NCBI GenBank assembly: GCA_036397835.1
Contig: DASWIG010000167.1
Location: 1-30,942, forward strand
Length of the DNA stretch: 30,942 bases
From: Thermoanaerobaculia bacterium
GTDB lineage: Bacteria > Acidobacteriota > Thermoanaerobaculia > Multivoradales > J023
Reading direction: 5' to 3'
The notes under the pieces were generated by a model. The model saw only the letters and a program-made list of their open reading frames with translations, searched no databases and had not been told where the DNA came from. The position numbers were made by a program, and so were the translations under genes. Positions 1 through 29,659 of this stretch are shown here, piece by piece; within the stretch, counting starts at the first letter, position 1, and every line of letters starts with the position of its first letter.

Positions 1-1
1 T

Positions 2-259
2 CTCAACGGTCAGATCAACGAGGCCAAGCGCCGCGCCTCCAAGGCGCGGGTCGTCAAGAACCAGGTCATGGGGGAGTACGACAAGCTCTTCCTGCGCAGC
101 GTGCGGATCTTCGAGGACTGCTGCCGGTTCACCGGGCAGGATGAGCTGGCTGACCTGGTGCGGCCTTCCACCACCCGGCCCGGCCGGACCGTGGAGGAGC
201 CCGGGGAAGTGCCCGACGACGTGCTCGACCAGATCGGTGAGGTGCCCCAACAAGGATAG
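2..259 (+). CDS. C-terminal fragment of an upstream gene, product unknown (hypothetical)
   Basis: The reading frame is open from the window edge to TAG at 257-259 (..[53 protein letters not shown]..). Amino-acid composition is balanced. A GC-rich hairpin follows. I recognise no family. Confidence 0.4.
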
Positions 260-299
260 ACTGACGCCGGTCTGAATCCGTCCACTCCGTGGCGCCGAG

Positions 300-344
300 G
301 GCCGGGCCTCGCACCGAGCCCGGCCTCCGGCGCCCGTTTTCGGG
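300..344 (+). terminator. Putative terminator-like hairpin after the first gene
   Basis: Inverted repeat ggccgggc (300-307) / gcccggcc (318-325), then cccgTTTTcggg with a T-run at 337-340. The T-run is not immediately adjacent to the main stem, so the call is weak. Confidence 0.25.
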
Positions 345-673
345 ATCTCGCCATGACGATCGCCACCGACCTCGCTCCCTCCTTCGCGACGCTCGCGGGC
401 GGCCCCACGCCGCGGTCGCGGCGGCTGCTCAACCGCGTGGCCGAGGATCCCCTGCGCGCCCTCGACGACCGGCGGTGCCAGAAGCCCGCGTTCTGCGATA
501 GCCGACGCGGACGCTGAGCGTGCCGAATTGTGGTGCAGCCGGCCCGGCTGCACCCGGAGCAGGCGGGACGCCTGCGCCACAATCTGGCAACTTCCCGCCG
601 GCGCGCATATGATGGACGCCTCGCGATCAGCGGGGCGCGGCCATCGTCCCGTATCTTCTCAGGTTGTCTTGCC

Positions 674-2989
674 ATGCGCACGATCTACCACGAGTTCGAG
701 TCCCTGGAGCACCTCCTGGCCACCCGCCTGCTGCCCGGAGGCGGCGACCGCCCGGTCCGCTTCGTGGTCTTCGGCGGCACCGGCGCGGTGGGCGGCGCCA
801 CCGTGCTCGAGCTGTGCCGCCTGATCCTCATGTCGCCGCGCTACCGCCAGCGGCCGCTGCGCGGCGAGGTCTACGCCACCGGCCTCCACGACAAGGAGAT
901 CGTCGGCTTCGTCAAGCGGCTCTACATGGCCTTCGAGGGCGAGGCCGAGATCGAGAAGATCGAGCCCCGGCGCCACTACCGGCTCCGCGGCGCCATCGAC
1001 CTCCGTTTCTCCCACCTCCACCTCACCCTGCCGCAGGACCTCCACCAGCACGTGCTGGCGGCGCGCGAGGCCGGCGGCGGCGCGTTCGACCCCGAGGCGG
1101 CGCTGGCCGAGTACTTCGAGTCGCAGCCCAAGCCCTTCCTGCGCTTCGTCGAGGCCCTCGGCGAGGAGGAGCTGCTGCACGCCGTGGTGGTGGCCATCCC
1201 CCTGCCCAGCGTCGCCACCTACACCCTCGAGTCGATCGACCGGCTCAACGCCGAGCTCGGCCTCGACCACAAGACGCTCAAGCACGTCAAGTCGAGCTAC
1301 CTGAAGACCTTCATCCGCGGCCTGGCCACCATCCAGCAACGCTACGCCCGCCACGTGGTCATGGCCCACACCACCGCCGTCGGCGGCATGTACCGGGTCG
1401 ACGGCGGCGCCGCCGAGATCCGCCTCGGCTTCGCCCACAGCGCCCTCGGCAAGAGACTGGTCGACAAGAAGTACTTCGCCGACGAGCTCACCCAGCTCTA
1501 CATCGACCACGGCTTCTACGTGCTGGTGACGGCGGCGGCGATCGGCATCGACGCGGTCGAGCTCCACTGCCACCTGCCCCTGGACCGCGGCGTCAGGAAC
1601 GCGCTCCGCCGCGCCGTGGACGCGCGCCCCGAGTCGCCGCCGCTGCCCGCCGCCGACCTCGAGCAGGGCAACGTCCTCGTCTACCCCGCCCTCGACCTGG
1701 CGCTGGAGCCCACGGCGGAGAGGAGCGGGGGGGAGACCACCGGGGAGAGCGAGCCGCTCGTCTTCGGCGCCGGCAAGGAGCTCGCGGTGGACGCGGCGAT
1801 CCGCTCGGGCGAGAACGGCCTCTTCTCGGTCGCCAACTGCGACGCCCTCTACAACGTGATGAAGGTGGCGATCCCCGAGGAGCTGGCCATGGTGCTGGTG
1901 CGCTTCGCCCTCTTCGGACCCGAGCGCCGCCGCGACTGGTTCCAGGACAACCTCTGCTACTACACCGAGACCGAGAACGCCCACTTCGCCCTGCAGCTCC
2001 TCTACAGCTATCCCGAGCTGCGCCGCGCCTGCTTCGGTCCCTTCGCGATCCAGGCCTACCAGGCCCTGGGCTCTTCCACCCACCAGGCGCGTCTCCACGA
2101 GCTGGGCCTCGTGATGGTGCTGCTGCGCCTGCGCGACCTCGGCGCCCGCTTCGCCGAGATCCCCGAGAAGGAGCTCGCCGAGGGCCTGACCGACGTCGAC
2201 GGTTTCCTCTGGCTGCACACCTCCATCCCCGCCTTCGAAGACTTCGAGGCGCTCGACGCCGCCCGCCTCGAGGCGCTCTTCGGCGCCCTGTGCGAGGTCG
2301 AGACCATGGAGGACGCCGGCCTGCTCCTGGGCTACGACCCGCGCCGGCACGGCCTGCGCGAGAGCGGCCGCGAGCGCTTCCTCGCCCGCCTCGCGACCCG
2401 TATCGGCCGCTACGTGAGGACCATCACCTCGCTCGGCATCCCGATCGTCTACCGCAGCCCCTCGAGCGGCCAGACCCGACTGCTCCTGGGGCCCTACGTG
2501 GCGCCGCTCGACGCCGCCGCCACCTCGACGCACGACGTCGACGCCGCCTTCCGCGGCCTCGCCGGCGAGCACGGCGTACCCTACGAGACGGCCCGCGACT
2601 GGGTGATCGCCAACAACGGCTTCGTGGACCTGCGCGCCCACGCCCTCGTGAGCGCCGCCAAGGAGCCGGGCCCGCGCATGGGCGAGGCCGTGCGCGGCCT
2701 GGCCTCGGCCGAGGAGCTCGCGGCGTGGATCGACGCCCTGCCGGCGGGCTCCTACTTCACCACCTGCGGGCTGGTGGCCCTCGAATACCGGCTGCGCCGC
2801 CTCTACGGCAAGGTGCGCAGACGCCAGATCCGCCTCGGCACCCGCGAGACCTGGAAGCACCTCTTCCCGCAGGACGGCCAGGGGCGTTACCTGCTCTCGC
2901 CGGGCCTGATCGAGACCGCGCGCATGTACTCGGAAGGCCTGGGCAAGGTCACCGGCACCGAGGCCCTGTGGCCGGGATGGGGGTATTGA
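674..2989 (+). CDS. Large (about 771 aa) uncharacterised protein with an N-terminal NAD(P)-binding Rossmann motif
   Basis: ORF 530..2989. The likely start is the ATG at 674 (MRTIYHEFESLEHLL). A Rossmann-type motif VRFVVFGGTGAVGGATVLEL sits near the N-terminus. Composition is diverse and non-repetitive, unlike the Ala/Arg/Gly-rich overlapping alternative frames. The C-terminal two-thirds has no family I can name. Confidence 0.6.
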   Translation: MRTIYHEFESLEHLLATRLLPGGGDRPVRFVVFGGTGAVGGATVLELCRLILMSPRYRQRPLRGEVYATGLHDKEIVGFVKRLYMAFEGEAEIEKIEPRRHYRLRGAIDLRFSHLHLTLPQDLHQHVLAAREAGGGAFDPEAALAEYFESQPKPFLRFVEALGEEELLHAVVVAIPLPSVATYTLESIDRLNAELGLDHKTLKHVKSSYLKTFIRGLATIQQRYARHVVMAHTTAVGGMYRVDGGAAEIRLGFAHSALGKRLVDKKYFADELTQLYIDHGFYVLVTAAAIGIDAVELHCHLPLDRGVRNALRRAVDARPESPPLPAADLEQGNVLVYPALDLALEPTAERSGGETTGESEPLVFGAGKELAVDAAIRSGENGLFSVANCDALYNVMKVAIPEELAMVLVRFALFGPERRRDWFQDNLCYYTETENAHFALQLLYSYPELRRACFGPFAIQAYQALGSSTHQARLHELGLVMVLLRLRDLGARFAEIPEKELAEGLTDVDGFLWLHTSIPAFEDFEALDAARLEALFGALCEVETMEDAGLLLGYDPRRHGLRESGRERFLARLATRIGRYVRTITSLGIPIVYRSPSSGQTRLLLGPYVAPLDAAATSTHDVDAAFRGLAGEHGVPYETARDWVIANNGFVDLRAHALVSAAKEPGPRMGEAVRGLASAEELAAWIDALPAGSYFTTCGLVALEYRLRRLYGKVRRRQIRLGTRETWKHLFPQDGQGRYLLSPGLIETARMYSEGLGKVTGTEALWPGWGY

Positions 2990-3048
2990 CGCCGCCGGAC
3001 CGAATCCGGCGTCGCGAATGAAGAGACGCGCGCCGGCGTATCGCAACG

Positions 3049-3720
3049 ATGATGACCGGGATCCTGGAAGTCCTCCACCACGCCTTCAGCATGCCGACCG
3101 CGATCTTCAGCGTTCTGCTGATCCTGGTCATCCTCTACTGGCTCGTTTCCCTCCTCGGCATCTTCAGCCTCGAGATGTTCGAGGCCGCCGAGGGTCTTGC
3201 GGACGGCGCCGCCGACGCCCTCGCCGAGGCCGGCGAAAGCCTGGGCGAGGCCGCCGAGGGCGAGCGCCCCGGCCTGCTGCGGGGCTTCGACGACGTGCCG
3301 CGCTCGATAAGCTGGAGCCTGGTCGTCGTCTTCGCCTGGCTCTTCAGCCTGCTCGCCACGATCTACCTGCCGCGCTACACCGAGGTCGCCATGCAGGGCC
3401 TGGCGGCCGTGGCCATGGTCGGCGCCGTGTCGCTCATGCTCGCCGTGGCGGTGACCGCCGTCGCTCTCCAGCCCCTGCGCAAGGTCCTGGTGGCGGGCTA
3501 CGGCCCCTCGCGCCACGACCTCGTGGGCCGCGTCTGCGTGGTGAGGACGCAGAGCGTGACGGACGATTTCGGCCAGGCCGAGCTCGACGACGGCGGCAGC
3601 ATCCTCCAGGTGCGCAACCCGCAGCACTACGACTTCACCGGAGGCTCGCGCGGCCTGATCTACGAGTACGACCCGGCCCGCGAGGTCTTCTACATCATGC
3701 CGATGGAAGACGACGGATGA
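3049..3720 (+). CDS. YqiJ-like (NfeD/DUF1449-like) inner-membrane protein
   Basis: Hydrophobic N-terminal and central segments (IFSVLLILVILYWLVSLLGIF; AVAMVGAVSLMLAVAVTAVAL) are followed by a soluble beta-rich C-terminus (VGRVCVVRTQSVTDDFGQAELDDGGSILQVRN). It lies 18 bp upstream of a flotillin gene, which is the classic yqiJ-yqiK (NfeD-SPFH) arrangement. Confidence 0.5.
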   Translation: MMTGILEVLHHAFSMPTAIFSVLLILVILYWLVSLLGIFSLEMFEAAEGLADGAADALAEAGESLGEAAEGERPGLLRGFDDVPRSISWSLVVVFAWLFSLLATIYLPRYTEVAMQGLAAVAMVGAVSLMLAVAVTAVALQPLRKVLVAGYGPSRHDLVGRVCVVRTQSVTDDFGQAELDDGGSILQVRNPQHYDFTGGSRGLIYEYDPAREVFYIMPMEDDG

Positions 3721-3738
3721 CGACTTGAGGAGCTCGAA

Positions 3739-5778
3739 ATGATTCCACTTCCGAGAAAGGTTCCGCAAGGAAAAGCGCTGATCATCAGCAACTTCGCGCG
3801 CGGGACGGTCAAGGTCAGCTTCACCGGCGCCCTGGTGGTTCCCTTCATCCACAAAGTGGAGGAGATGGACATCTCGGTCAAGACGATCGAGCTCGACCGC
3901 CGCGGCTCCGACGGCCTGATCTGTCAGGACAACATCCGCGCCGACATCAAGGTCACCTTCTTCGTGCGCGTCAACAACACGCAGGAGGACGTGAAGAAGG
4001 TGGCGCAGGCCATCGGCTGCGAGCGCGCCTCCGACCAGAAGACGCTCGAGGCGCTGTTCATCGCCAAGTTCTCCGAAGCGCTGAAGACGGTCGGCAAGGG
4101 TCTCGATTTCGTCGACCTCTACACCAAGCGCAAGGAATTCCGCGACCAGATCATCGCGGTGATCGGCACCGACCTCAACGGCTACTCGCTCGAGGACTGC
4201 GCCATCGACTACCTCGAGCAGACGCCGCTGGCCGAGCTCGACAAGGACAACATCCTCGACGCCCAGGGCATCCGCAAGATCACCGAGCTCACCGCCATCG
4301 AGCACGTGAGCACCAACGACTTCCGGCGCAACGAAGAAAAGCAGATCAAGAAGCAGGACGTCGAGGCCGCCGAGGCCATCTACGAGCTCGAGCGCCAGCA
4401 GGCCGACGCCGAGTCGAAACAGAAGCGCGAGATCGAGTCGGTGCGGGCGCGCGAGCAGGCCGAGACGCTCAAGGTGCAGCAGGAAGAGCGCCTCAAGGCC
4501 GAGACCGCGCGCATCAAGGCCGAGGAAGAGATCGCCGTCCAGGAACAGAACAAGCAGCGCCAGGTCGAGGTGGCGCAGAAGAACCGCGAGCGGGTCATCG
4601 CGGTCGAGACCGAGCGCGTGGAGAAGGACCGGGTGCTCGAGGTCATCTCCCGCGAGCGCGAGACCGAGCTCCAGCGCATCGCCAAGGACAAGGAGGTCGA
4701 GAACGAGAAACGCGAGATCGCCAACGTGATCCGCGAGCGCATCGCGGTGGAGAAGACGGTGGCCGAGGAGGAGGAGGCGATCAAGCGCCTGCGGGTGGTC
4801 GAGGAGGCCAACCGCACGCGCGAGGCCACGGTGATCACCGCCGAGGCCGAGGCCCAGGAGAAGCTGGTCAAGGACATCAAGGCCGCCGAGGCCGCCGAGA
4901 TCGCCGCCGGCCATCGGGCCAAGGAGCGGGTGGTCCTCGCCGAGGCCGAGGCCGAGGAGAAGAAGATCAGGGACGTCAAGGCCGCCGAGGCCGGCGAGGA
5001 GGCGGCCCAGTTCAAGGCCCGCGAGCTCATCGCGCTCGCCGAGGCCGAGCTGGAGACGACCGACCGCAAGGCGCGGGCGCGGGTGCGCATGGCCGACGCC
5101 GAGCGCGACGCGGCGGAGAAAGAGTCCGAGGGCAAGAAGCTGCTCGCCGAGGGCGTCCAGGCCGAGTCGGCGGCCGTCGGCCTGGCCGAGGCCCGGGTGC
5201 TGCGCCGCAAGGGCATGGCCGAGGCCACGGCGATCCGCGAGAAGATCAAGGGCGAGGCCGAGGGCCTGACCGACAAGGCCAAGGCCATGGCCTCCCTCGA
5301 CGAACGCAGCCGCCAGCACGAGGAGTACCGCCTGCGCCTCGAGATGGAGCGCGCCGTGGAGCTCGCGGGCATCGACGCGCGGCGGCAGGTCGCCGAGGCC
5401 CAGGCCGTGGTGCTCTCCGACGGCCTCAAGAACGCCAAGATCGACATCGTCGGCGGCGAGTCGATCTTCTTCGACCGCCTGGTCAACGCCGTCTCGATGG
5501 GCAAGTCGGTCGACGGCTTCCTCAGGAGCGACGGCGGACGCACGCTCTTCAAGGACTACCTGGACGGCAAGGCGAGCTTCGCGGACGACCTGAGGAGCGT
5601 GCTCACCCGCCCCGCCCTCGACGCCGGCAAGGTCCGCGACCTGACGCTCGCGGCCTTCCTCGGCAAGGCGATGGCGTCGGCCGAGGGCGAGGAGAAGAGC
5701 AAGCTCGACCAGATCGCGCAGATCGTCCAGCGGCTGGGGCTCGACCAGGTGAAGGTCGGAGACTTGGGCGGCGAGTAG
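3739..5778 (+). CDS. Flotillin / SPFH (band-7) family protein, YqiK-like
   Basis: An N-terminal membrane hairpin and SPFH domain (ISVKTIELDRRGSDGLICQDNIRADIKVTFFVRV...) are followed by a long Glu/Ala/Arg/Lys-rich coiled-coil (EA-repeat flotillin tail). It is 679 aa, has a clean start with an upstream GGAG, and ends at TAG 5776-5778. Confidence 0.8.
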   Translation: MIPLPRKVPQGKALIISNFARGTVKVSFTGALVVPFIHKVEEMDISVKTIELDRRGSDGLICQDNIRADIKVTFFVRVNNTQEDVKKVAQAIGCERASDQKTLEALFIAKFSEALKTVGKGLDFVDLYTKRKEFRDQIIAVIGTDLNGYSLEDCAIDYLEQTPLAELDKDNILDAQGIRKITELTAIEHVSTNDFRRNEEKQIKKQDVEAAEAIYELERQQADAESKQKREIESVRAREQAETLKVQQEERLKAETARIKAEEEIAVQEQNKQRQVEVAQKNRERVIAVETERVEKDRVLEVISRERETELQRIAKDKEVENEKREIANVIRERIAVEKTVAEEEEAIKRLRVVEEANRTREATVITAEAEAQEKLVKDIKAAEAAEIAAGHRAKERVVLAEAEAEEKKIRDVKAAEAGEEAAQFKARELIALAEAELETTDRKARARVRMADAERDAAEKESEGKKLLAEGVQAESAAVGLAEARVLRRKGMAEATAIREKIKGEAEGLTDKAKAMASLDERSRQHEEYRLRLEMERAVELAGIDARRQVAEAQAVVLSDGLKNAKIDIVGGESIFFDRLVNAVSMGKSVDGFLRSDGGRTLFKDYLDGKASFADDLRSVLTRPALDAGKVRDLTLAAFLGKAMASAEGEEKSKLDQIAQIVQRLGLDQVKVGDLGGE

Positions 5779-5808
5779 CCTGCCGCGACACCCACGCCTC
5801 AAGAAAAA

Positions 5809-5835
5809 CCGCGGCGCTCAAGAGCAGCGCCGCGG
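5809..5835. terminator. Perfect 10-bp GC-rich hairpin right after the flotillin stop (terminator-like)
   Basis: ccgcggcgct (5809-5818), loop caagagc, agcgccgcgg (5826-5835). An A-run (agaaaaa) precedes it. There is no T-run on the + side, so it may be a non-canonical or bidirectional element. Confidence 0.4.
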
Positions 5836-5844
5836 AAACGATCG

Positions 5845-5962
5845 GAGGCGCTGAACCTGGCACAGCCGGGCGCGCTCGCCGGCGTCGATCGCCAGCTTCC
5901 TGGAGGCGGCCGGCGCGGCGGCGCTGGAGCTGGCCGGCAAGATCCTGGTGCGGCGGAGCTGA
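5845..5962 (+). pseudogene. 3'-terminal remnant (about 115 bp) of a paralogue of the acidic gene at 22925..23403 (minus strand)
   Basis: Nucleotide alignment with the reverse complement of 22925..23045 matches apart from a few mismatches and two single-base indels in the 5' part. The last 28 codons are in frame and encode PASIASFLEAAGAAALELAGKILVRRS*, versus ...AGRILVRRS* in the other copy. There is no start codon and no upstream ORF. The 5' part has lost the frame. Confidence 0.6.
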
Positions 5963-5982
5963 CGCGGAACCCTCACCCCCGG

Positions 5983-6005
5983 CCCCTCTCCCAGGGGGAG
6001 AGGGG
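5983..6005. repeat. GC-rich stem-loop cccctctccc-agg-gggagagggg
   Basis: Perfect 10-bp inverted repeat (5983-5992 / 5996-6005). The same CCCTCTCC...GGAGAGG hairpin motif recurs at 16246..16271. Confidence 0.5.
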
Positions 6006-6379
6006 AGTCGGATCTGATGGATGTTCGAGCCGGGGGGAGGATTTGGACGGCGTCAGCCGTCCGGAAATCCCCCCTCGGTCCCTTTGTCAAAGGGGGGAGG
6101 TGGACTCCTCGCTGGCGCCTCGGGGCCCGAGGCTCGGCAGGCTCCGCGGGCACCGTTTGGGATGTCGAGTCAGCCATCTTGCTGCTCTCAGTCCAGCTCG
6201 AAGAGGACGATTCCCTCCCGGGCGTCCTTGACAAGCGCAAGCCCTGCGGTCCTCAAGGACGGATCGGTCATTGAGGACTTCGTCCTCGAATGGATCGTTC
6301 TCCGCGTCGAAGCCGCGGATCGGCAGGCCCAGTCTGCCCTACGAGAGCCTCGCCATTCGTTCGTGCTAGGCTTTGCGGG

Positions 6380-20783: not shown

Positions 20784-22411
20784 TGGTGCGGCTCGCCCTC
20801 GTGGGCCTCGTCCTGGCGGCGCCGCCGGCCGGCGACGACCCCTGCGCCACCCCGCGCTTCACCGAGACCGCCGCCGACGCCGGCGTCGTCTTCACCCACG
20901 ACCCGGGCTCCCGCGGCGAATACCACCTGCCGGAGTCGATGGGCGCCGGGCTCGCCTGGCTCGACTACGACGGCGACGGCTGGAGCGACCTCTACGCCGT
21001 GCAGTCGGGCCCCTTCCCAGGCGGCGGCGAACCCGGCCGTCTGTGGCGCAACCTGGGAACGGGCGACGACGGCCGCGCGACCTTCGAGGACGTGACCGAG
21101 CGCGCCTTGCCCGACGCCGGCGGCTACGGCCAGGGCGCCCTCGCCGCCGACCTCGACGGCGACGGCTGGACCGATCTCTACCTGACCCGCTTCGGCCCCG
21201 ACGCCTTCCTGCGCAACCGAGGCGACGGAACCTTCGAGGACGCGACCGCGGCCTTCGGCCTCGGCCTTCCCGGCTGGAGCTCCTCGGCCGCCGCCGCCGA
21301 CGCCGACGGCGACGGCGAACTCGACCTCTACGTGACCCGCTACCTGGTCTACGACCCGTCCGAGGAGCTCTTCTGCGGCGACCTCGAGCGCGGCCTGCGC
21401 CGCTTCTGCGACCCGGTGCTCTTCGCCGGCGCCGAGGACCGCTTCTTCGTCAACCGGGGAGGCCGTTTCGAGGACGCCACCGCCGCCGCGGGCCTCGCCG
21501 GCGCCGCCGGCAAGGGCCTCGGCGTGGTCTTCACCGACCTCGACGGCGACCGCCGTCCCGACCTCTACGTGGCCAACGACCTGACGCCGAACTTCCTCTT
21601 CCGCAACCTCGGCCGGCGTTTCGAGGACGTCTCCCTCTTCTCCGGCGCCGCCGCCAACCGCGAAGGCGCCTTCGAGGCCGGCATGGGGATCGCCGTCGGC
21701 GACGTCGACGGCGACGGCGACCCCGATCTCGCGGTGACCAACTTCGACGTCGAGACCAACACGCTCTACCTCAACCTCGGTTCGATGCAATTCGAGGACG
21801 TCTCGGCCCGCAGCGGCTTCGGCACTCCGTCGTTCAACCTCCTCGGCTTCGGCGTCGCTTTGGCCGACTTTGACCGCGACGGCGGCCTCGACGCCTGGGT
21901 GGCCAACGGCCACATCTTCGAGCATCCGCCGCGCGAGAACGTCACCCACGCCCAGCGCGACTTGCTGCTGCTCGGCGACGGCCGCGGCGGCTTCCGCGAG
22001 CGTCGCTGCCCGTGGCTCGAGGAGAGGCCGCTGGTTGGCCGCGGCCTCGCCGTGGCCGACTACGACCGCGACGGCGACGCGGACGTGGCGATCGTCAACA
22101 ACGGCGGTCCGCTGCAACTGTGGCGCAACGACGCCGAGGCGGGCGGCTGGCTCGCCGTGGAGGCCGAGAGCGTGGGGACGACGGTGGACGTCGTCGACGC
22201 CGGCGGCCGCCGCCGGCGCCGCTGGGTGACGGCGGGAGACAGCTACCAGTCGACCAGCGAGCGGCGGCCGCTCTTCGGGCTGGGCGCGTCCTCGCCGGCG
22301 GCGGTCGAGGTCGCCTGGCCCGACGGCCGGCGGACGCGATTGCAGGGCCTGCGCCCCTCCCCCGGCGGCTCCGGCGACCGCGGTGCGGGGCTGGCCATGC
22401 GCTTCCGGTGA
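20783..22411 (+). CDS. FG-GAP/VCBS repeat protein with C-terminal ASPIC/UnbV domain (CRTAC1 family)
   Basis: DxDGDGxxD FG-GAP calcium-binding repeats recur (LDYDGDGWSDLY, DLDGDGWTDLYL, DADGDGELDLYV, DVDGDGDPDLAV, DYDRDGDADVAI). The C-terminus RRWVTAGDSYQSTSERRPLFGLG...VEVAWPDGR is typical of ASPIC/UnbV. The start overlaps the upstream TPR stop. The first 425 codons of track ORF 19508..22411 are a different gene and its frame extension. Confidence 0.8.
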   Translation: MVRLALVGLVLAAPPAGDDPCATPRFTETAADAGVVFTHDPGSRGEYHLPESMGAGLAWLDYDGDGWSDLYAVQSGPFPGGGEPGRLWRNLGTGDDGRATFEDVTERALPDAGGYGQGALAADLDGDGWTDLYLTRFGPDAFLRNRGDGTFEDATAAFGLGLPGWSSSAAAADADGDGELDLYVTRYLVYDPSEELFCGDLERGLRRFCDPVLFAGAEDRFFVNRGGRFEDATAAAGLAGAAGKGLGVVFTDLDGDRRPDLYVANDLTPNFLFRNLGRRFEDVSLFSGAAANREGAFEAGMGIAVGDVDGDGDPDLAVTNFDVETNTLYLNLGSMQFEDVSARSGFGTPSFNLLGFGVALADFDRDGGLDAWVANGHIFEHPPRENVTHAQRDLLLLGDGRGGFRERRCPWLEERPLVGRGLAVADYDRDGDADVAIVNNGGPLQLWRNDAEAGGWLAVEAESVGTTVDVVDAGGRRRRRWVTAGDSYQSTSERRPLFGLGASSPAAVEVAWPDGRRTRLQGLRPSPGGSGDRGAGLAMRFR

Positions 22412-22426
22412 TTCCGGGAACCGGGG

Positions 22427-22760
22427 TGCAGGCGCTGCAATGCACCTCGGCCAATTCCCGAAACTGGATTGCAGGCACTGCATCGCACCTTCGCCAATTG
22501 CCGGAAGTGCGCTGCAGGGTCTGCAACGCACTTTTGCCAATTGAGGAAGTAGCATTGCAGGCACTGCAGCGCACCCTGCCAATTGCCGGAAGTGCGTTGC
22601 AGCGGCTGCAACGCACCTCTGCCAATTGAGGAAGTTGCATTGCAGGAGCTGCAGCGTACTTCTGCCAATTCACAGAAGCGCATTGCAGAGGCTGCAGCGC
22701 TACTTTCCTAATCGAGGCAATAGCGTTGCAGAGGCTGCAACGTCACGGTCACGGCGGTGC
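22427..22760. repeat. Intergenic tandem array of about 8 copies of a 42-43-bp palindromic unit (not CRISPR)
   Basis: Units start at 22427, 22470, 22513, 22556, 22598, 22641, 22684 and 22727. Each contains TGCAGNNNCTGCA(N)CGCAC, which together with the preceding GTGCG forms an 11-bp-arm inverted repeat (GTGCGCTGCAG-N3-CTGCAGCGCAC). An 18-20-bp linker follows, carrying GCCAATTG (CAATTG palindrome). Linkers alternate between two variants (..ccggaagtgcg. and ..aggaagtWgcat), which points to an 86-bp higher-order repeat. The terminal copies are degenerate. Confidence 0.85.
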
Positions 22761-22924
22761 AGTCGGCTGACTCCTTCCCGCAAGTGCTGAAAACACGTGG
22801 CTTACGCCAAAGCGACTCGGTCCGGCAGGAAGATCCGGGAAACTGGATATCCCAGACAGACATAGACGATGGGAGCGCAGGCGAGACGCTTGCTCGCCTC
22901 ATCTGCACTCCCTGCGGGCGCCGT

Positions 22925-23403
22925 TCAGCTCCGACGCACCAGGATCCTGCCGGCCAACTCCAGCGCCGCCGCGCCCGCCGCTTCCAGGAAGCTGGCGATC
23001 GACGCCGGGCAGCGCGCCAGGCCGTCGGCGAGGTTCAGCGCCTCCGTCAGCTCCGGATTGCCGTGGCGCAGCCGGCCCACGGCGCGGCCGTCCCGATAGA
23101 GCACGGGACCGCCGGCGTCCTCCGGGTCGACGGAGAAGCTCCGCGTCCGGTCTACCAACGGCAGGAATGCGGCGGCGAGCAGGGCCGTGTCGCGGTCGGT
23201 GAGGGTGCCGAAGGGCTCGTCGCCGTCCTCCGGATTCTCCCACATGCGAACAGGCCGTAGCGCTCGTCGCCGAGCGGCACCACGCGCCAGAAGCCGCCGG
23301 TCACCGCCTCGCCGGCGGTCACGGGGTCGTCGTGCTGGTCGAGACTTCGGAGGTAGCTCGGATGGAAGGCGTTGACGAGGGTAGAATCGTCTTGATCGGG
23401 CAT
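22925..23403 (-). pseudogene. Acidic hypothetical protein gene disrupted by a frameshift near 23246
   Basis: Two abutting minus-strand ORFs, 23403..23152 (MPDQDDSTLVNAFHPSYL...GDERYGLFA) and 23245..22925 (MWENPEDGDEPFGTLTDRD...ELAGRILVRRS), are colinear in adjacent frames and overlap at ggcctgttcgcatgtgggag. Joined, they would give an acidic protein of about 160 aa. It is divergent from hsdM. A 3' remnant of a paralogue lies at 5845..5962. Confidence 0.55.
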
Positions 23404-23555
23404 TGGGTGTACTCCTTTGCCTGGTCAGGTCCGGGCGAGCGCCAACTCGCTCGGGCCGTCTTGGTTTTGTGAAGCGGATGCTCCGTTACCGCTAAGAGTA
23501 GCCGGATTCCGGGGACAAGTCAACCCTCGAGAGCGTCAAAGGCTGGGATTCTTCG

Positions 23556-25491
<1,936 letters not shown>

Positions 25492-25499
<8 letters not shown>

Positions 25500-26745
25500 T
25501 GCAGGAACCATGGAGCGGGCTGTTACCAATGCCGAGCTTGGGGCCTCCATGCTTCCACGTGAGTGGGAGATCGTCGAGTTTGACGCCTCTATTCAGAAAG
25601 GCCGACTGCCGGTCAGGAAAATCAAGTCTTCGGATTACATGGCAAAGGGCCGGTTCCCTATAGTAGACCAAGGCCAAGGACTGATTGCCGGATACTGGGA
25701 TGACTCGGATGGATTGTATGATGGCCAGGAACCGGTTATTGTCTTCGGTGATCACACTCGCACCTTCAAATACATAGATTTCCCGTTCTTTGCCGGCGCC
25801 GATGGTACACAGATCCTGCGACCTAACACGAAGATCTTTGATCCTCGCTTTCTGTACTATGCCCTCACATTCCTGTCAATTCCGAGCCGGGGATATAATA
25901 GACATTACTCGATTCTACGACAGAAACACCTGTCAAGACCACCGCTAAGCGAACAACGAGCCATCGCCCATGTCCTGCGGACGGTGCAGCGAGCGAAGGA
26001 AGCGACGGAGAAGGTCATCGCCGCCGCCCGTCAACTCAAGCAGAGCCTCATGCGTCATCTGTTCACTTATGGCCCCGTTCCGTTCCACGAGGCCGGCCAA
26101 GTGGACATTCGCGGAACAGATTTCGGCGCAGCGCCAGCGAACTGGACGATAATGCGATTGGACGAGTGCGCCGAAGTTCAAACAGGGGTAGCGAAGGGTC
26201 GCAAGCTCAATTCGACAGAAACCGTGACGCTTCCCTATCTTCGCGTTGCGAACGTCCAAGATGGCTTTCTCGATCTGACGGAGATAAAGACCTTGACGAT
26301 TCGCTCCTCAGAAGTAGATCGTTACTCGTTGAGACGCGGCGACGTGGTCCTCACAGAAGGCGGTGATTTCGACAAGTTGGGGCGTGGCTTCATCTGGACC
26401 GAGGAAGTGTCCCTCTGCATCCACCAGAATCACATTTTCGCCGTCCGTGCCAATCGAGAGCTCCTCCTGCCCGAGTTTCTCGCCTACATGACGCAGAGCA
26501 ACTACGGTAAGGCGTATTTCCTCTCCGTCGCGCACAAGACTACAAACCTCGCCTGCATCAACACGACAAAGCTGAAAGCCTTTCCTGCTCTCCTTCCTGA
26601 ATTGGAAGGCCAGCGGAGCATAATAGAGCGACTGCGATTCGTTGATCGCAAGATCGCCGCCGAGGAAGCCAAGAGAAGCAGTCTCGAATCGTTGTTCAGC
26701 TCACTCCTGCACGAGCTAATGACCGGACAAACCCGAGTTGATTAG
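25492..26745 (+). CDS. hsdS: Type I restriction-modification specificity subunit
   Basis: Two target-recognition domains are separated by the conserved central helix (LSEQRAIAHVLRTVQRAKEATEKVIAAARQLKQSLMRHLFTYG). The matching C-terminal conserved helix is LEGQRSIIERLRFVDRKIAAEEAKRSSLESLFSSLLHELMTGQ. GC content is markedly lower than in neighbouring genes. It overlaps hsdM. Confidence 0.85.
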
Positions 26746-26770
26746 CGGATTCTACCAAAGTGAGAGTGTG

Positions 26771-29658
<2,888 letters not shown>

Positions 29659-29659
<1 letters not shown>

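What the first reader, a model, noticed from the sequence alone, without database searches (positions are those of the whole stretch)
5845..5962. 3' remnant of the R-M-adjacent acidic gene lies 17 kb away, and the two copies differ mainly by synonymous changes
Positions 5845..5962 align with the reverse complement of 22925..23045, the 3' end of the frameshifted gene. Across the last 28 codons I count five nucleotide differences. Four are synonymous (gaG/gaA, gcC/gcG, Ctg/Ttg, cgG/cgT) and one is conservative (aAg/aGg, K/R). That pattern is expected when two paralogues diverged under purifying selection before one was truncated. Upstream of that point the 5845 copy has indels that break the frame, and it has no start, so it is a relic. 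A multi-copy, decaying acidic protein gene next to an R-M system raises the possibility of an anti-restriction or DNA-mimic gene, or an immunity-like gene family. Neither copy is intact in this window.
Basis: seen in the sequence. Interest (0 to 1): 0.55.

Follow-up and report, generated by a model that had tools for sequence, protein, structure and literature searches.

The report
Dead fragment of multi-copy gene family
The 118-base segment is a real but dead tail-end fragment of one member of a many-copy, uncharacterised small-protein gene family found in Thermoanaerobaculia; its position next to a restriction-modification system in this window is coincidental, so the remnant is ordinary genome decay, although the family itself is unstudied.

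Summary
Window 5843-5962 (+) matches the reverse complement of 23047-22925 (118/135, E 1e-37). It is the longest inverted repeat in the window, and it has a 2-nt deletion and no start codon.

It is not a copy of the R-M-adjacent gene. It is a relic of another paralogue of a dispersed family of about 160-aa acidic proteins. Eight annotated loci in this MAG, plus this unannotated relic, carry family sequence. At least 12 full copies occur in one metagenome, and 627 clusters at 50% identity were found. Its last 93 nt differ by 1 nt from a full copy elsewhere (L052) but by 7 nt from the window's own copy.

Selection on the family is purifying (pN/pS about 0.29).

The frameshift is the loss of one T from a TTT run. 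It recurs in at least three further independent assemblies, while two others are intact, so it is a real polymorphism.

The R-M link is incidental, because neighbours vary between loci. There is no ArdA/Ocr or immunity-protein match by sequence or fold, and no homologues on plasmids or phages.

Family copies and relics sit at synteny breakpoints. I infer that they act as patches of homology for recombination. The protein's function remains unknown; it is probably a non-enzymatic binder.

The parts
5843..5962 (+). 3' relic, corresponding to codons ~119-159 plus the stop of a family paralogue. It has a 2-nt deletion near 5863 and no start codon. Weak homology may begin at about 5833.
5809..5835 (.). 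G+C-rich hairpin directly 5' of the relic, at the deletion junction. The scan tool calls it terminator-like on the - strand; it may also end the 679-aa gene.
   Evidence: sequence
5963..6124 (+). Downstream flank of the relic. Segments 5963-5985 and 6045-6124 are homologous to the flank of the full-length L019 paralogue. Segment 5986-6044 is extra sequence relative to L019 and holds most of the dispersed 'type A' palindrome (CCCCTCTCCC-AGG-GGGAGAGGGG, about 5982-6004).
22925..23403 (-). Full-length family gene (159 aa when intact). Here it is split into 83-aa and 106-aa ORFs by loss of one T in a TTT run at 23249-23250.
23404..23470 (-). Conserved leader. It consists of an A-rich tract, a hairpin at 23428-23457 with a hypervariable loop, the invariant sequence GACCAGGCAAAGGAG (Shine-Dalgarno at 23412-23417), and then the ATG. 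On the + strand the hairpin scores as an intrinsic terminator.
23471..23523 (-). Upstream part of the repeat unit, shared with some paralogues only (unit edges at -103/-89 in those, at -66/-60 in others). TTGACT-17-TACTCT (23523-23495) was seen by eye but did not pass the promoter scan.
22871..22912 (-). 'Type B' palindrome (GGGAGYGCAG...CTGCGCTCCC) right after the stop codon, probably a terminator. The same class follows the stop of many paralogues and follows the relic in L012.
22407..22745 (.). Array of eight 43-bp palindromic units downstream of the gene. The same kind of array lies downstream of three other family copies (L028, L046, L058).

Best explanation
Window 5843-5962 is a non-functional 3' remnant (pseudogene fragment) of one member of a dispersed, lineage-specific multigene family of Thermoanaerobaculia (Acidobacteriota).

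A family unit is about 0.55-0.6 kb. It contains a conserved leader with a hairpin and Shine-Dalgarno sequence, a 159-aa ORF, and a terminator-like palindrome of one of two types.

Shown:
- The MAG that holds this window has eight annotated loci with family sequence (five intact, one frameshifted, one cut by a contig end, one truncated), plus this unannotated relic.
- One metagenome holds at least 12 full copies.
- The paralogues evolve under purifying selection.
- Many 5' and 3' fragments exist elsewhere.
- The relic comes from a paralogue lineage different from the R-M-adjacent copy, and it still has that lineage's downstream flank.
- The frameshift in the R-M-adjacent copy is a segregating 1-nt deletion.

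Inferred:
- A full copy once lay downstream of the 679-aa gene. A deletion or rearrangement removed its leader and first ~118 codons, leaving the most conserved part of the gene. A small palindromic repeat later landed in the flank.
- The relic does nothing as a gene. Its only activity is as a patch of homology.
- Strain-to-strain synteny breaks fall at the relic's 3' edge (L012) and inside the 5' part of the full copy (L010 is L028-like upstream and window-like downstream). I therefore infer that recombination between family copies reshuffles flanking DNA, which often carries toxin-antitoxin or defence genes.

The protein itself is most likely a stand-alone, non-enzymatic binding protein. It is acidic, and its conserved residues are only hydrophobic, Gly or Pro. 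Individual copies appear dispensable. Its partner is unknown.
For: - Repeat confirmed.
- No ORF in the relic.
- Family size: 50 close hits, including locus tags VGG06_31885, _15060, _13300, _30295, _11615, _07490, _00270 and _21090 from one MAG; 627 clusters at 50% identity; 51 metagenome loci, with at least 12 full copies in Ga0299906; three copies in another Thermoanaerobaculia MAG.
- Sharp unit edges: -103 to -60 upstream, and the stop codon at the 3' end.
- Selection: dN/dS 0.24-0.54 between pairs; pS 0.207 against pN 0.060 overall.
- Relic origin: 1 nt from L052, 2 nt from L028/L039, and 7 nt from the window copy over 93 nt; its flank is homologous to the L019 flank.
- Other fragments: P0030, P0035, P0037-P0040, P0043-P0049 and L061-L068, L073, L076.
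- The relic is present and 99.9% identical in at least five independent assemblies.
- Breakpoints: L012 is identical up to 5963 and then differs. L010 positions 3477-3700 are 99.6% identical to L028 but about 91% to the window, while the rest of L010 is 98.9% identical to the window.
- Frameshift allele: TT in the window, L078, L079 and L080; TTT in L010 and L011.
- Conserved columns are F, L, A, G, W and P only.
- pI 4.65 and net charge -10.
Against: - Nothing tested shows what the protein does. 'Binding protein' rests only on the lack of conserved polar or catalytic residues.
- The recombination inference relies on metagenome contigs. The L012 arrangement is seen in a single contig, and L010 could be an assembly chimera formed at a near-identical repeat.
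- Sharp unit edges at dS of about 0.2-0.3 would also fit a mobilised cassette, which simple duplication plus decay does not predict.
- Toxin-antitoxin or defence genes lie next to at least 8 of ~21 loci. This hints at a non-random association that the plain 'decaying paralogue' picture does not explain.
Confidence: 0.75

Rival explanations
1. The family protein is an anti-restriction protein or DNA mimic (ArdA/Ocr-like) linked functionally to the adjacent type I R-M system. The relic is then a decayed second copy of that anti-restriction gene.
For: The protein is acidic (pI 4.65, net charge -10). In this window it lies divergently next to hsdM-hsdS-hsdR.
Against: - R-M adjacency occurs only at this locus. 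About 20 other loci have unrelated neighbours.
- The same locus carries HicB/RHH in place of the R-M system in L010.
- There is no ArdA/Ocr/ArdB Pfam or PADLOC hit and no PDB sequence hit with a 116-sequence profile.
- No homologues were found on plasmids, phages or IMG/VR contigs, which is where anti-restriction genes normally reside.
- A chromosomal, 10-20-copy gene with its own leader is not the usual setting for anti-restriction.
Confidence: 0.04
2. The family is an orphan immunity-like or antitoxin-like protein family that neutralises a toxin or effector supplied in trans. Copy-number expansion and decay would then reflect an arms race.
For: - The genes are multi-copy, individually dispensable and partly decayed.
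- The conservation pattern looks non-enzymatic.
- The N-terminus is variable while the core is conserved.
- Toxin-antitoxin or defence genes lie next door at at least 8 of ~21 loci: R-M, HicB, SieB/FitA, PIN, RES-Xre, Phd, SLFN_AlbA_2 and BrxL_N.
- One locus is 2.7 kb from an RHS-repeat gene.
Against: - There is no conserved partner gene of any kind.
- No immunity or antitoxin family matches in Pfam, NCBIfam or PADLOC.
- No fold match was found.
- Paralogues are 85-91% identical, with dN/dS of about 0.3 and no sign of diversifying selection.
Confidence: 0.15
3. The 3' relics are attachment-site duplications or cassette boundaries. In this view, small cargo elements carrying toxin-antitoxin or defence genes integrate at the 3' end or leader of the family gene, or the 0.6-kb unit itself is a non-autonomous mobile cassette, and this leaves displaced gene ends behind.
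For: - Unit edges are sharp despite dS of 0.2-0.3.
- L019 shows relic - full copy - PIN toxin-antitoxin pair - relic, all in direct orientation, and the two relics share about 285 bp including their flank.
- L028 has 5 kb of cargo inserted about 170 bp upstream of the ATG relative to L010.
- Many relics keep an exact 3' end with variable 5' ends.
Against: - In the window the relic and the full copy are inverted and separated by 17 kb of housekeeping genes such as topA, glk, purD and pckA.
- No full copy lies within 15 kb upstream of the relic in L022.
- No integrase or transposase is enriched among 118 neighbouring ORFs.
- No terminal inverted repeats or target duplications were seen.
- The apparent excess of 3' relics is at least partly an ascertainment bias of the scan patterns. 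The unbiased search gave 5 fragments from the 5' end against 7 from the 3' end.
Confidence: 0.08
4. The similarity, the frameshift or the breakpoints are artefacts: a chance GC-rich or low-complexity match, or metagenome misassembly.
For: The genome is 69% G+C and the shared peptide is rich in Ala and Leu. Contigs often break inside family copies (L079-L081; L032, L034, L054 and L060).
Against: - The match has E 1e-37 and is the only long inverted repeat in the window.
- The relic with both of its flanks is reproduced at 99.9% identity in at least five assemblies from different samples.
- The TT frameshift allele is seen in four assemblies and the TTT allele in two.
- Homologues number in the hundreds.
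Confidence: 0.02

Closest known systems
Gene remnants (pseudogene fragments) of lineage-specific paralogous families, which act as dispersed repeats that mediate homologous rearrangement, as IS copies or rRNA operons do
   Same: The relic is a truncated, frame-broken, promoterless piece with high identity to intact paralogues. Copies coincide with synteny breakpoints, and individual copies are polymorphic for inactivation.
   Different: The unit encodes no transposase and has no recognisable ends. Paralogues are 85-91% identical, not near-identical like IS copies. The family has no annotation in Pfam, NCBIfam, PHROGs or PADLOC.
ArdA / Ocr anti-restriction DNA mimics
   Same: Small and acidic. 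One copy lies next to a type I R-M system.
   Different: There is no sequence or fold similarity. The charge is much lower (-10). The genes are chromosomal and multi-copy and are absent from plasmids and phages. The R-M adjacency is not conserved.
Orphan immunity genes or orphan modules of polymorphic toxin systems (Rhs/CDI)
   Same: Multiple copies together with truncated 3' fragments scattered in accessory regions. The proteins are small and apparently non-enzymatic.
   Different: In Rhs/CDI orphans the 3' fragment carries the variable toxin tip followed by an immunity gene. Here the 3' end is the most conserved part, and no toxin partner is linked.
REP/BIME-type extragenic palindromes (my own knowledge of E. 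coli and Pseudomonas REPs)
   Same: The palindromes that follow the relic and the gene (types A and B) and the 43-bp array are short, G+C-rich, dispersed, extragenic palindromes that often lie just 3' of a stop codon.
   Different: They are accessories to the finding, not the finding itself. No RAYT-type transposase was looked for or seen, and the sequences are unrelated to the enterobacterial REPs I know.

Membership tests
Pseudogene relic of a paralogous gene family | Homologous to part of a gene that exists intact elsewhere | tested here: met
   The relic is 87-99% identical over 93-135 nt to the 3' ends of intact 159-aa paralogues.
Pseudogene relic of a paralogous gene family | Cannot encode the protein (no start codon, frame disruption, truncation) | tested here: met
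   It has a 2-nt deletion, an upstream in-frame stop, no start codon, and only ~40 of 159 codons present.
Pseudogene relic of a paralogous gene family | The parent family is under purifying selection, so the fragment's conservation is inherited and not its own | tested here: met
   pN/pS is 0.29 family-wide. The relic peptide equals the family consensus. The only relic-specific changes cluster at its 5' junction.
ArdA/Ocr-type anti-restriction DNA mimic | Sequence membership (Pfam ArdA, Ocr or related; PADLOC/PHROGs anti-defence models) | tested here: not met
   There were no hits for the window ORFs or for 116 family members.
ArdA/Ocr-type anti-restriction DNA mimic | DNA-mimic fold comparable to solved ArdA or Ocr structures | tested here: not met
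ArdA/Ocr-type anti-restriction DNA mimic | Carried by plasmids, conjugative elements or phages | tested here: not met
   No tblastn hit in 72,556 plasmids or 50,697 phages, and none in IMG/VR.
ArdA/Ocr-type anti-restriction DNA mimic | Inhibits type I restriction enzymes | not testable with these tools
   This needs a restriction-alleviation assay.
Polymorphic-toxin immunity or antitoxin protein | Encoded next to its cognate toxin | tested here: not met
   No neighbour family recurs across 23 loci. There are 130 Pfam families among 118 neighbouring ORFs, and none occurs in more than 3.
Polymorphic-toxin immunity or antitoxin protein | Match to a known immunity or antitoxin family | tested here: not met
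   Pfam, NCBIfam and PADLOC gave no match.
att-site duplication left by an integrative element that targets a gene's 3' end | The full gene and the displaced 3' fragment are direct repeats flanking a discrete element that carries a recombinase | tested here: not met
   In the window the two are inverted around 17 kb of core genes, and no integrase is nearby. L019 has a direct arrangement around a PIN toxin-antitoxin pair but no recombinase, so that locus is inconclusive.
REP/BIME-like extragenic palindromes (flanking elements only) | Short imperfect palindromes that are extragenic and dispersed in many copies | tested here: met
   The type A palindrome is found at more than 10 loci and type B at 8 or more. 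The 43-bp array folds with z -5.2.
REP/BIME-like extragenic palindromes (flanking elements only) | Cognate RAYT (Y1 transposase) in the genome | not tested
   The whole genome was not available.

The most novel reading that the evidence does not exclude
The ~0.6-kb unit (leader hairpin + 159-aa ORF + terminator palindrome) might be more than a decaying paralogue family. It could be a portable 'homology anchor' or non-autonomous cassette that nucleates and exchanges small toxin-antitoxin and defence islets between loci and strains. In that reading the 3' relics are footprints of such exchanges. The encoded protein has a confidently predicted fold with no match in PDB, and it could be a new kind of trans-acting immunity or anti-defence factor.
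Probability: 0.1. Interest if true: 0.65.

Novelty: new member of a known kind. Interest (0 to 1): 0.3.

Why it matters
As a remnant it matters little. It is ordinary gene decay and should not be annotated as, or linked to, an anti-restriction function.

The useful by-products are these:
1. An unannotated family restricted, so far as seen, to Thermoanaerobaculia. It has 627 clusters at 50% identity and 10-20 copies per genome. It has a high-confidence predicted fold without PDB matches and a conserved leader hairpin. It is a candidate for a new Pfam entry and for experimental work.
2. Evidence that its copies and relics mark rearrangement junctions and toxin-antitoxin or defence islets. This is relevant to MAG assembly quality, because contigs break or may chimerise at these repeats, and to how accessory genes are shuffled in this poorly studied class.

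Tried and rejected
- **Known-family searches.** Pfam, NCBIfam, PADLOC and PHROGs scans of the window ORFs and of 116 family members found nothing. A PDB sequence-profile search found nothing at E <= 10.
- **Domain fusions.** Ten longer family members gave no Pfam hits.
- **Conserved neighbour.** All-against-all blastp of ORFs within 3 kb at 23 loci, and a Pfam scan of 118 neighbouring ORFs, found no recurrent partner and no integrase or transposase enrichment.
- **Model 'gene - cargo - displaced 3' end'.** This predicted a full copy upstream of the relic. None was found within 15 kb in L022.
- **RNA searches.** Rfam found nothing at gathering thresholds, and only chance miRNA-like hits in the 43-bp array in E-value mode. 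No tRNAs were found.
- **Leader hairpin.** The alifold structure is conserved, but only 1 pair covaries, so structure is not demonstrated.
- **PIN remnant next to the relic.** Only the repeat-derived tail matches, so I rejected this.
- **Literature.** A search for Thermoanaerobaculia plus paralog found nothing relevant.
- **Excess of 3' relics.** I rejected this as evidence of mechanism once I saw that the scan patterns lie in the C-terminal half of the protein.

Full report
**1. Observation**

The window is 69% G+C. blastn of 5700-6100 against the reverse complement of 22800-23600 gives a single strong alignment: 118/135 identities, E 1e-37. It runs from 5843 to just past the TGA at 5960-5962, against 23047 to about 22911, with the stop codons in register. 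The repeat finder reports it as the longest inverted repeat in the window (I1, 101 nt ungapped, 91%); the background pairs are at most 48 nt at about 71%.

Translation of the three frames shows ...EALNLA in one frame and, after a 2-nt deletion, ARSPASIASFLEAAGAAALELAGKILVRRS* in another. There is a stop just upstream and no start codon. Two codons further up there is also an S/C difference involving 2 nt.

**2. The full copy and its frameshift**

Window 23403-22925 (-) is split into ORFs of 83 and 106 aa. A 99%-identical contig from another sample (L011) has CCTGTTTCGC where the window has CCTGTTCGC, and it encodes an intact 159-aa protein, P0001. The lesion is therefore the loss of one T at 23249-23250.

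The TT allele is also present in three further assemblies from different samples (L078, L079, L080). The TTT allele is in L010 and L011/L027. This argues for a real, segregating inactivating mutation and against an assembly error. Only reads can prove it.

**3. The family**

The repaired protein finds 50 close relatives. Their names carry eight locus tags of one MAG (Thermoanaerobaculia, prefix VGG06_), including VGG06_07490, which is the 106-aa ORF of this 30,942-bp contig. Five of the eight are intact. The others are this frameshifted copy, one cut by a contig end, and one truncated. The relic is a ninth, unannotated locus.

A profile search of 1.84 billion cluster representatives finds 627 clusters at E <= 0.001. 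Named members are all Thermoanaerobaculia, and another MAG again has three copies. A metagenome scan returned 51 loci, and in one metagenome at least 12 full copies sit on separate long contigs.

No Pfam, NCBIfam, PADLOC or PHROGs model and no PDB sequence matches the family. Longer members carry no extra known domain.

The nearly invariant columns are M, F, L, A, G, W and P only. The protein has pI 4.65 and net charge -10. No relatives occur in plasmid, phage or IMG/VR collections.

**4. The repeat unit**

Among paralogues, DNA similarity (85-91%) starts between -103 and -60 relative to the ATG and ends at or a few bases after the stop codon.

The leader is conserved even in relatives that are 57-61% identical at the protein level (L018, L021). 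It has an A-rich tract, a 12-bp hairpin whose loop is hypervariable, and the invariant sequence GACCAGGCAAAGGAG before the ATG. RNAalifold predicts the hairpin and a second helix pairing the Shine-Dalgarno and AUG region. Only one pair covaries, so the structure is not proven. Read on the opposite strand, the hairpin plus its T-rich tail scores as an intrinsic terminator.

After the stop codon comes one of two classes of palindrome. Type B is at the window's full copy (22871-22912). Type A follows the relic.

Pairwise dN/dS among paralogues is 0.24-0.54. Pooled pS is 0.207 and pN is 0.060. In the last 40 codons pS is about 0.125 and pN about 0.01.

**5. Where the relic came from**

Over its last 93 nt the relic differs by 1 nt from the full copy in L052, by 2 nt from L028 and L039, and by 7 nt from the window's own copy. 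Its peptide is the exact family consensus, whereas the window copy has derived C and R residues.

Its downstream flank (5963-5985 and 6045-6124) is homologous to the flank of the full-length copy in L019. The window has an extra 59 nt (5986-6044), which holds most of the dispersed type A palindrome.

The relic-specific changes (the 2-nt deletion, G>A and T>G) cluster within 12 nt of its 5' junction. That junction abuts a G+C-rich hairpin after the 679-aa gene.

The relic with both of its flanks is reproduced at 99.9% identity in at least five assemblies. I conclude that a full paralogue of the L019/L052 type once lay here and lost its leader and first ~118 codons.

**6. Neighbours and the R-M question**

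hsdM, hsdS and hsdR are confirmed at 23556-29659. The same locus in L010 keeps the FG-GAP gene, the 43-bp array and the family gene, but has HicB/RHH genes where the R-M system should be.

Other copies lie next to SLFN_AlbA_2, MerB, SieB/FitA, PIN, RES-Xre, Phd, a BrxL_N fragment, a Mutator transposase fragment, or ordinary metabolic genes.

No neighbour family recurs across loci. Among 118 neighbouring ORFs, 130 Pfam families are hit, and none in more than three ORFs. Toxin-antitoxin or defence genes are immediate neighbours at at least 8 of ~21 loci. That is suggestive, but I could not compare it with a measured background rate. The R-M adjacency is incidental, and the anti-restriction idea fails every membership feature that could be tested.

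The 17 kb between the relic and the full copy is housekeeping DNA, including topA, glk, purD and pckA.

**7. Breakpoints**

L012 is 99.8% identical to the window from position 1 to 5963. It then continues with a type B palindrome and HTH/HigB genes in place of the window's flank. L017 follows the window to 6005 and then diverges.

L010 is 99.6% identical to L028 across the upstream flank, the leader and the first 54 nt of the CDS, but only about 91% identical to the window there. The remaining 3.5 kb of L010 is 98.9% identical to the window. Relative to L010, L028 carries about 5 kb of extra genes roughly 170 bp upstream of the ATG.

L019 contains relic - full copy - PIN toxin-antitoxin pair - relic in direct orientation.

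These patterns are what recombination between dispersed copies would produce. They are also where metagenome assemblers can err. Contigs frequently end inside family copies. I therefore treat recombination as inferred and not shown.

**8. Alternatives**

An att-duplication or cassette model is attractive for L019, and it would explain the sharp unit edges. It fails in the window for three reasons: the orientation is inverted, core genes lie between the two copies, and no recombinase is nearby. Its prediction of a full copy upstream of the relic was not met.

The apparent excess of 3' relics is an ascertainment effect. The scan patterns cover residues 74-82 and 135-144. The unbiased search gave 5 fragments from the 5' end and 7 from the 3' end.

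An immunity-like role cannot be excluded, but it has no positive evidence beyond copy number, decay and the neighbourhood.

**9. Verdict**

The finding is real, and it is an ordinary gene remnant of a multi-copy family. The pairing with the R-M-adjacent copy and the anti-restriction suggestion are not supported.

The family itself is unannotated and has a confidently predicted fold with no PDB match. It also has a conserved leader and is associated with rearrangement junctions. It is worth a note, but nothing here shows a new mechanism.

Noticed in passing
window 22407-22745 (also L028 6667-6900, L046 1387-1660, L058 2974-3041): There is an array of eight 43-bp units. Each unit is an 11-bp-stem palindrome (GTGCGTTGCAG-NNN-CTGCAACGCAC) plus a conserved 16-nt linker with a CCAATTG core. 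Two units fold at -47 kcal/mol (z -5.2). Similar arrays lie 180-320 bp downstream of three other family copies. It is not CRISPR-like, because the linkers are conserved.
   Followed up: partly
window 5982-6004 (type A) and 22871-22912 (type B); many loci: Two classes of dispersed G+C-rich palindrome sit immediately after family stop codons. Type A (CCCCTCTCCC-AGG-GGGAGAGGGG) is translated as 'NPHPRPLSQGERG' in several mis-called ORFs (P0019, P0035, P0049). Type B is GGGAGCGCAGGCG..CGCCTGCGCTCCC. They are REP-like or terminator-like. Type A also occurs away from family genes.
   Followed up: partly
window 23404-23470 (-): The family has a conserved leader with a hairpin whose loop is hypervariable, followed by the invariant sequence GACCAGGCAAAGGAG. 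There is no Rfam match. On the + strand the hairpin (23428-23457) scores as an intrinsic terminator. An isolated copy of leader positions -60 to -11 lies at L041 9098-9147.
   Followed up: partly
window 530-5778 (+); L022 1-10000; L017 1-900: A three-gene block (771/819 aa, 223 aa, 679 aa) has no Pfam hit. In longer contigs it is preceded by CHAT, a caspase-like Peptidase_C14, ParE/Phd and a TIR_2/SEFIR protein. It may be a defence island, and the relic sits at its downstream edge.
   Followed up: no
L078 1-1190: In sample 3300037518 the hsdM orthologue is called as two ORFs (240 aa with HsdM_N and 406 aa with N6_Mtase). The methylase may therefore be disrupted in that population.
   Followed up: no
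window 23556-23840 (+): HsdM is unusually long (647 aa), with a weak N-terminal SAP-domain hit that falls below the Pfam cut-off.
   Followed up: no
P0038 (metagenome contig, 1.4 kb): The N-terminal 76 residues of a family member are fused in frame to a LuxR/GerE-type HTH (PF00196, PF08281). This is probably another rearrangement junction.
   Followed up: no
L019 5288-6232 and 12480-12863: Two PALP-domain ORFs (314 aa and 127 aa) flank a ~6-kb stretch that holds toxin-antitoxin genes, a full family copy and two relics. This may be a gene split or partially duplicated by an insertion.
   Followed up: no
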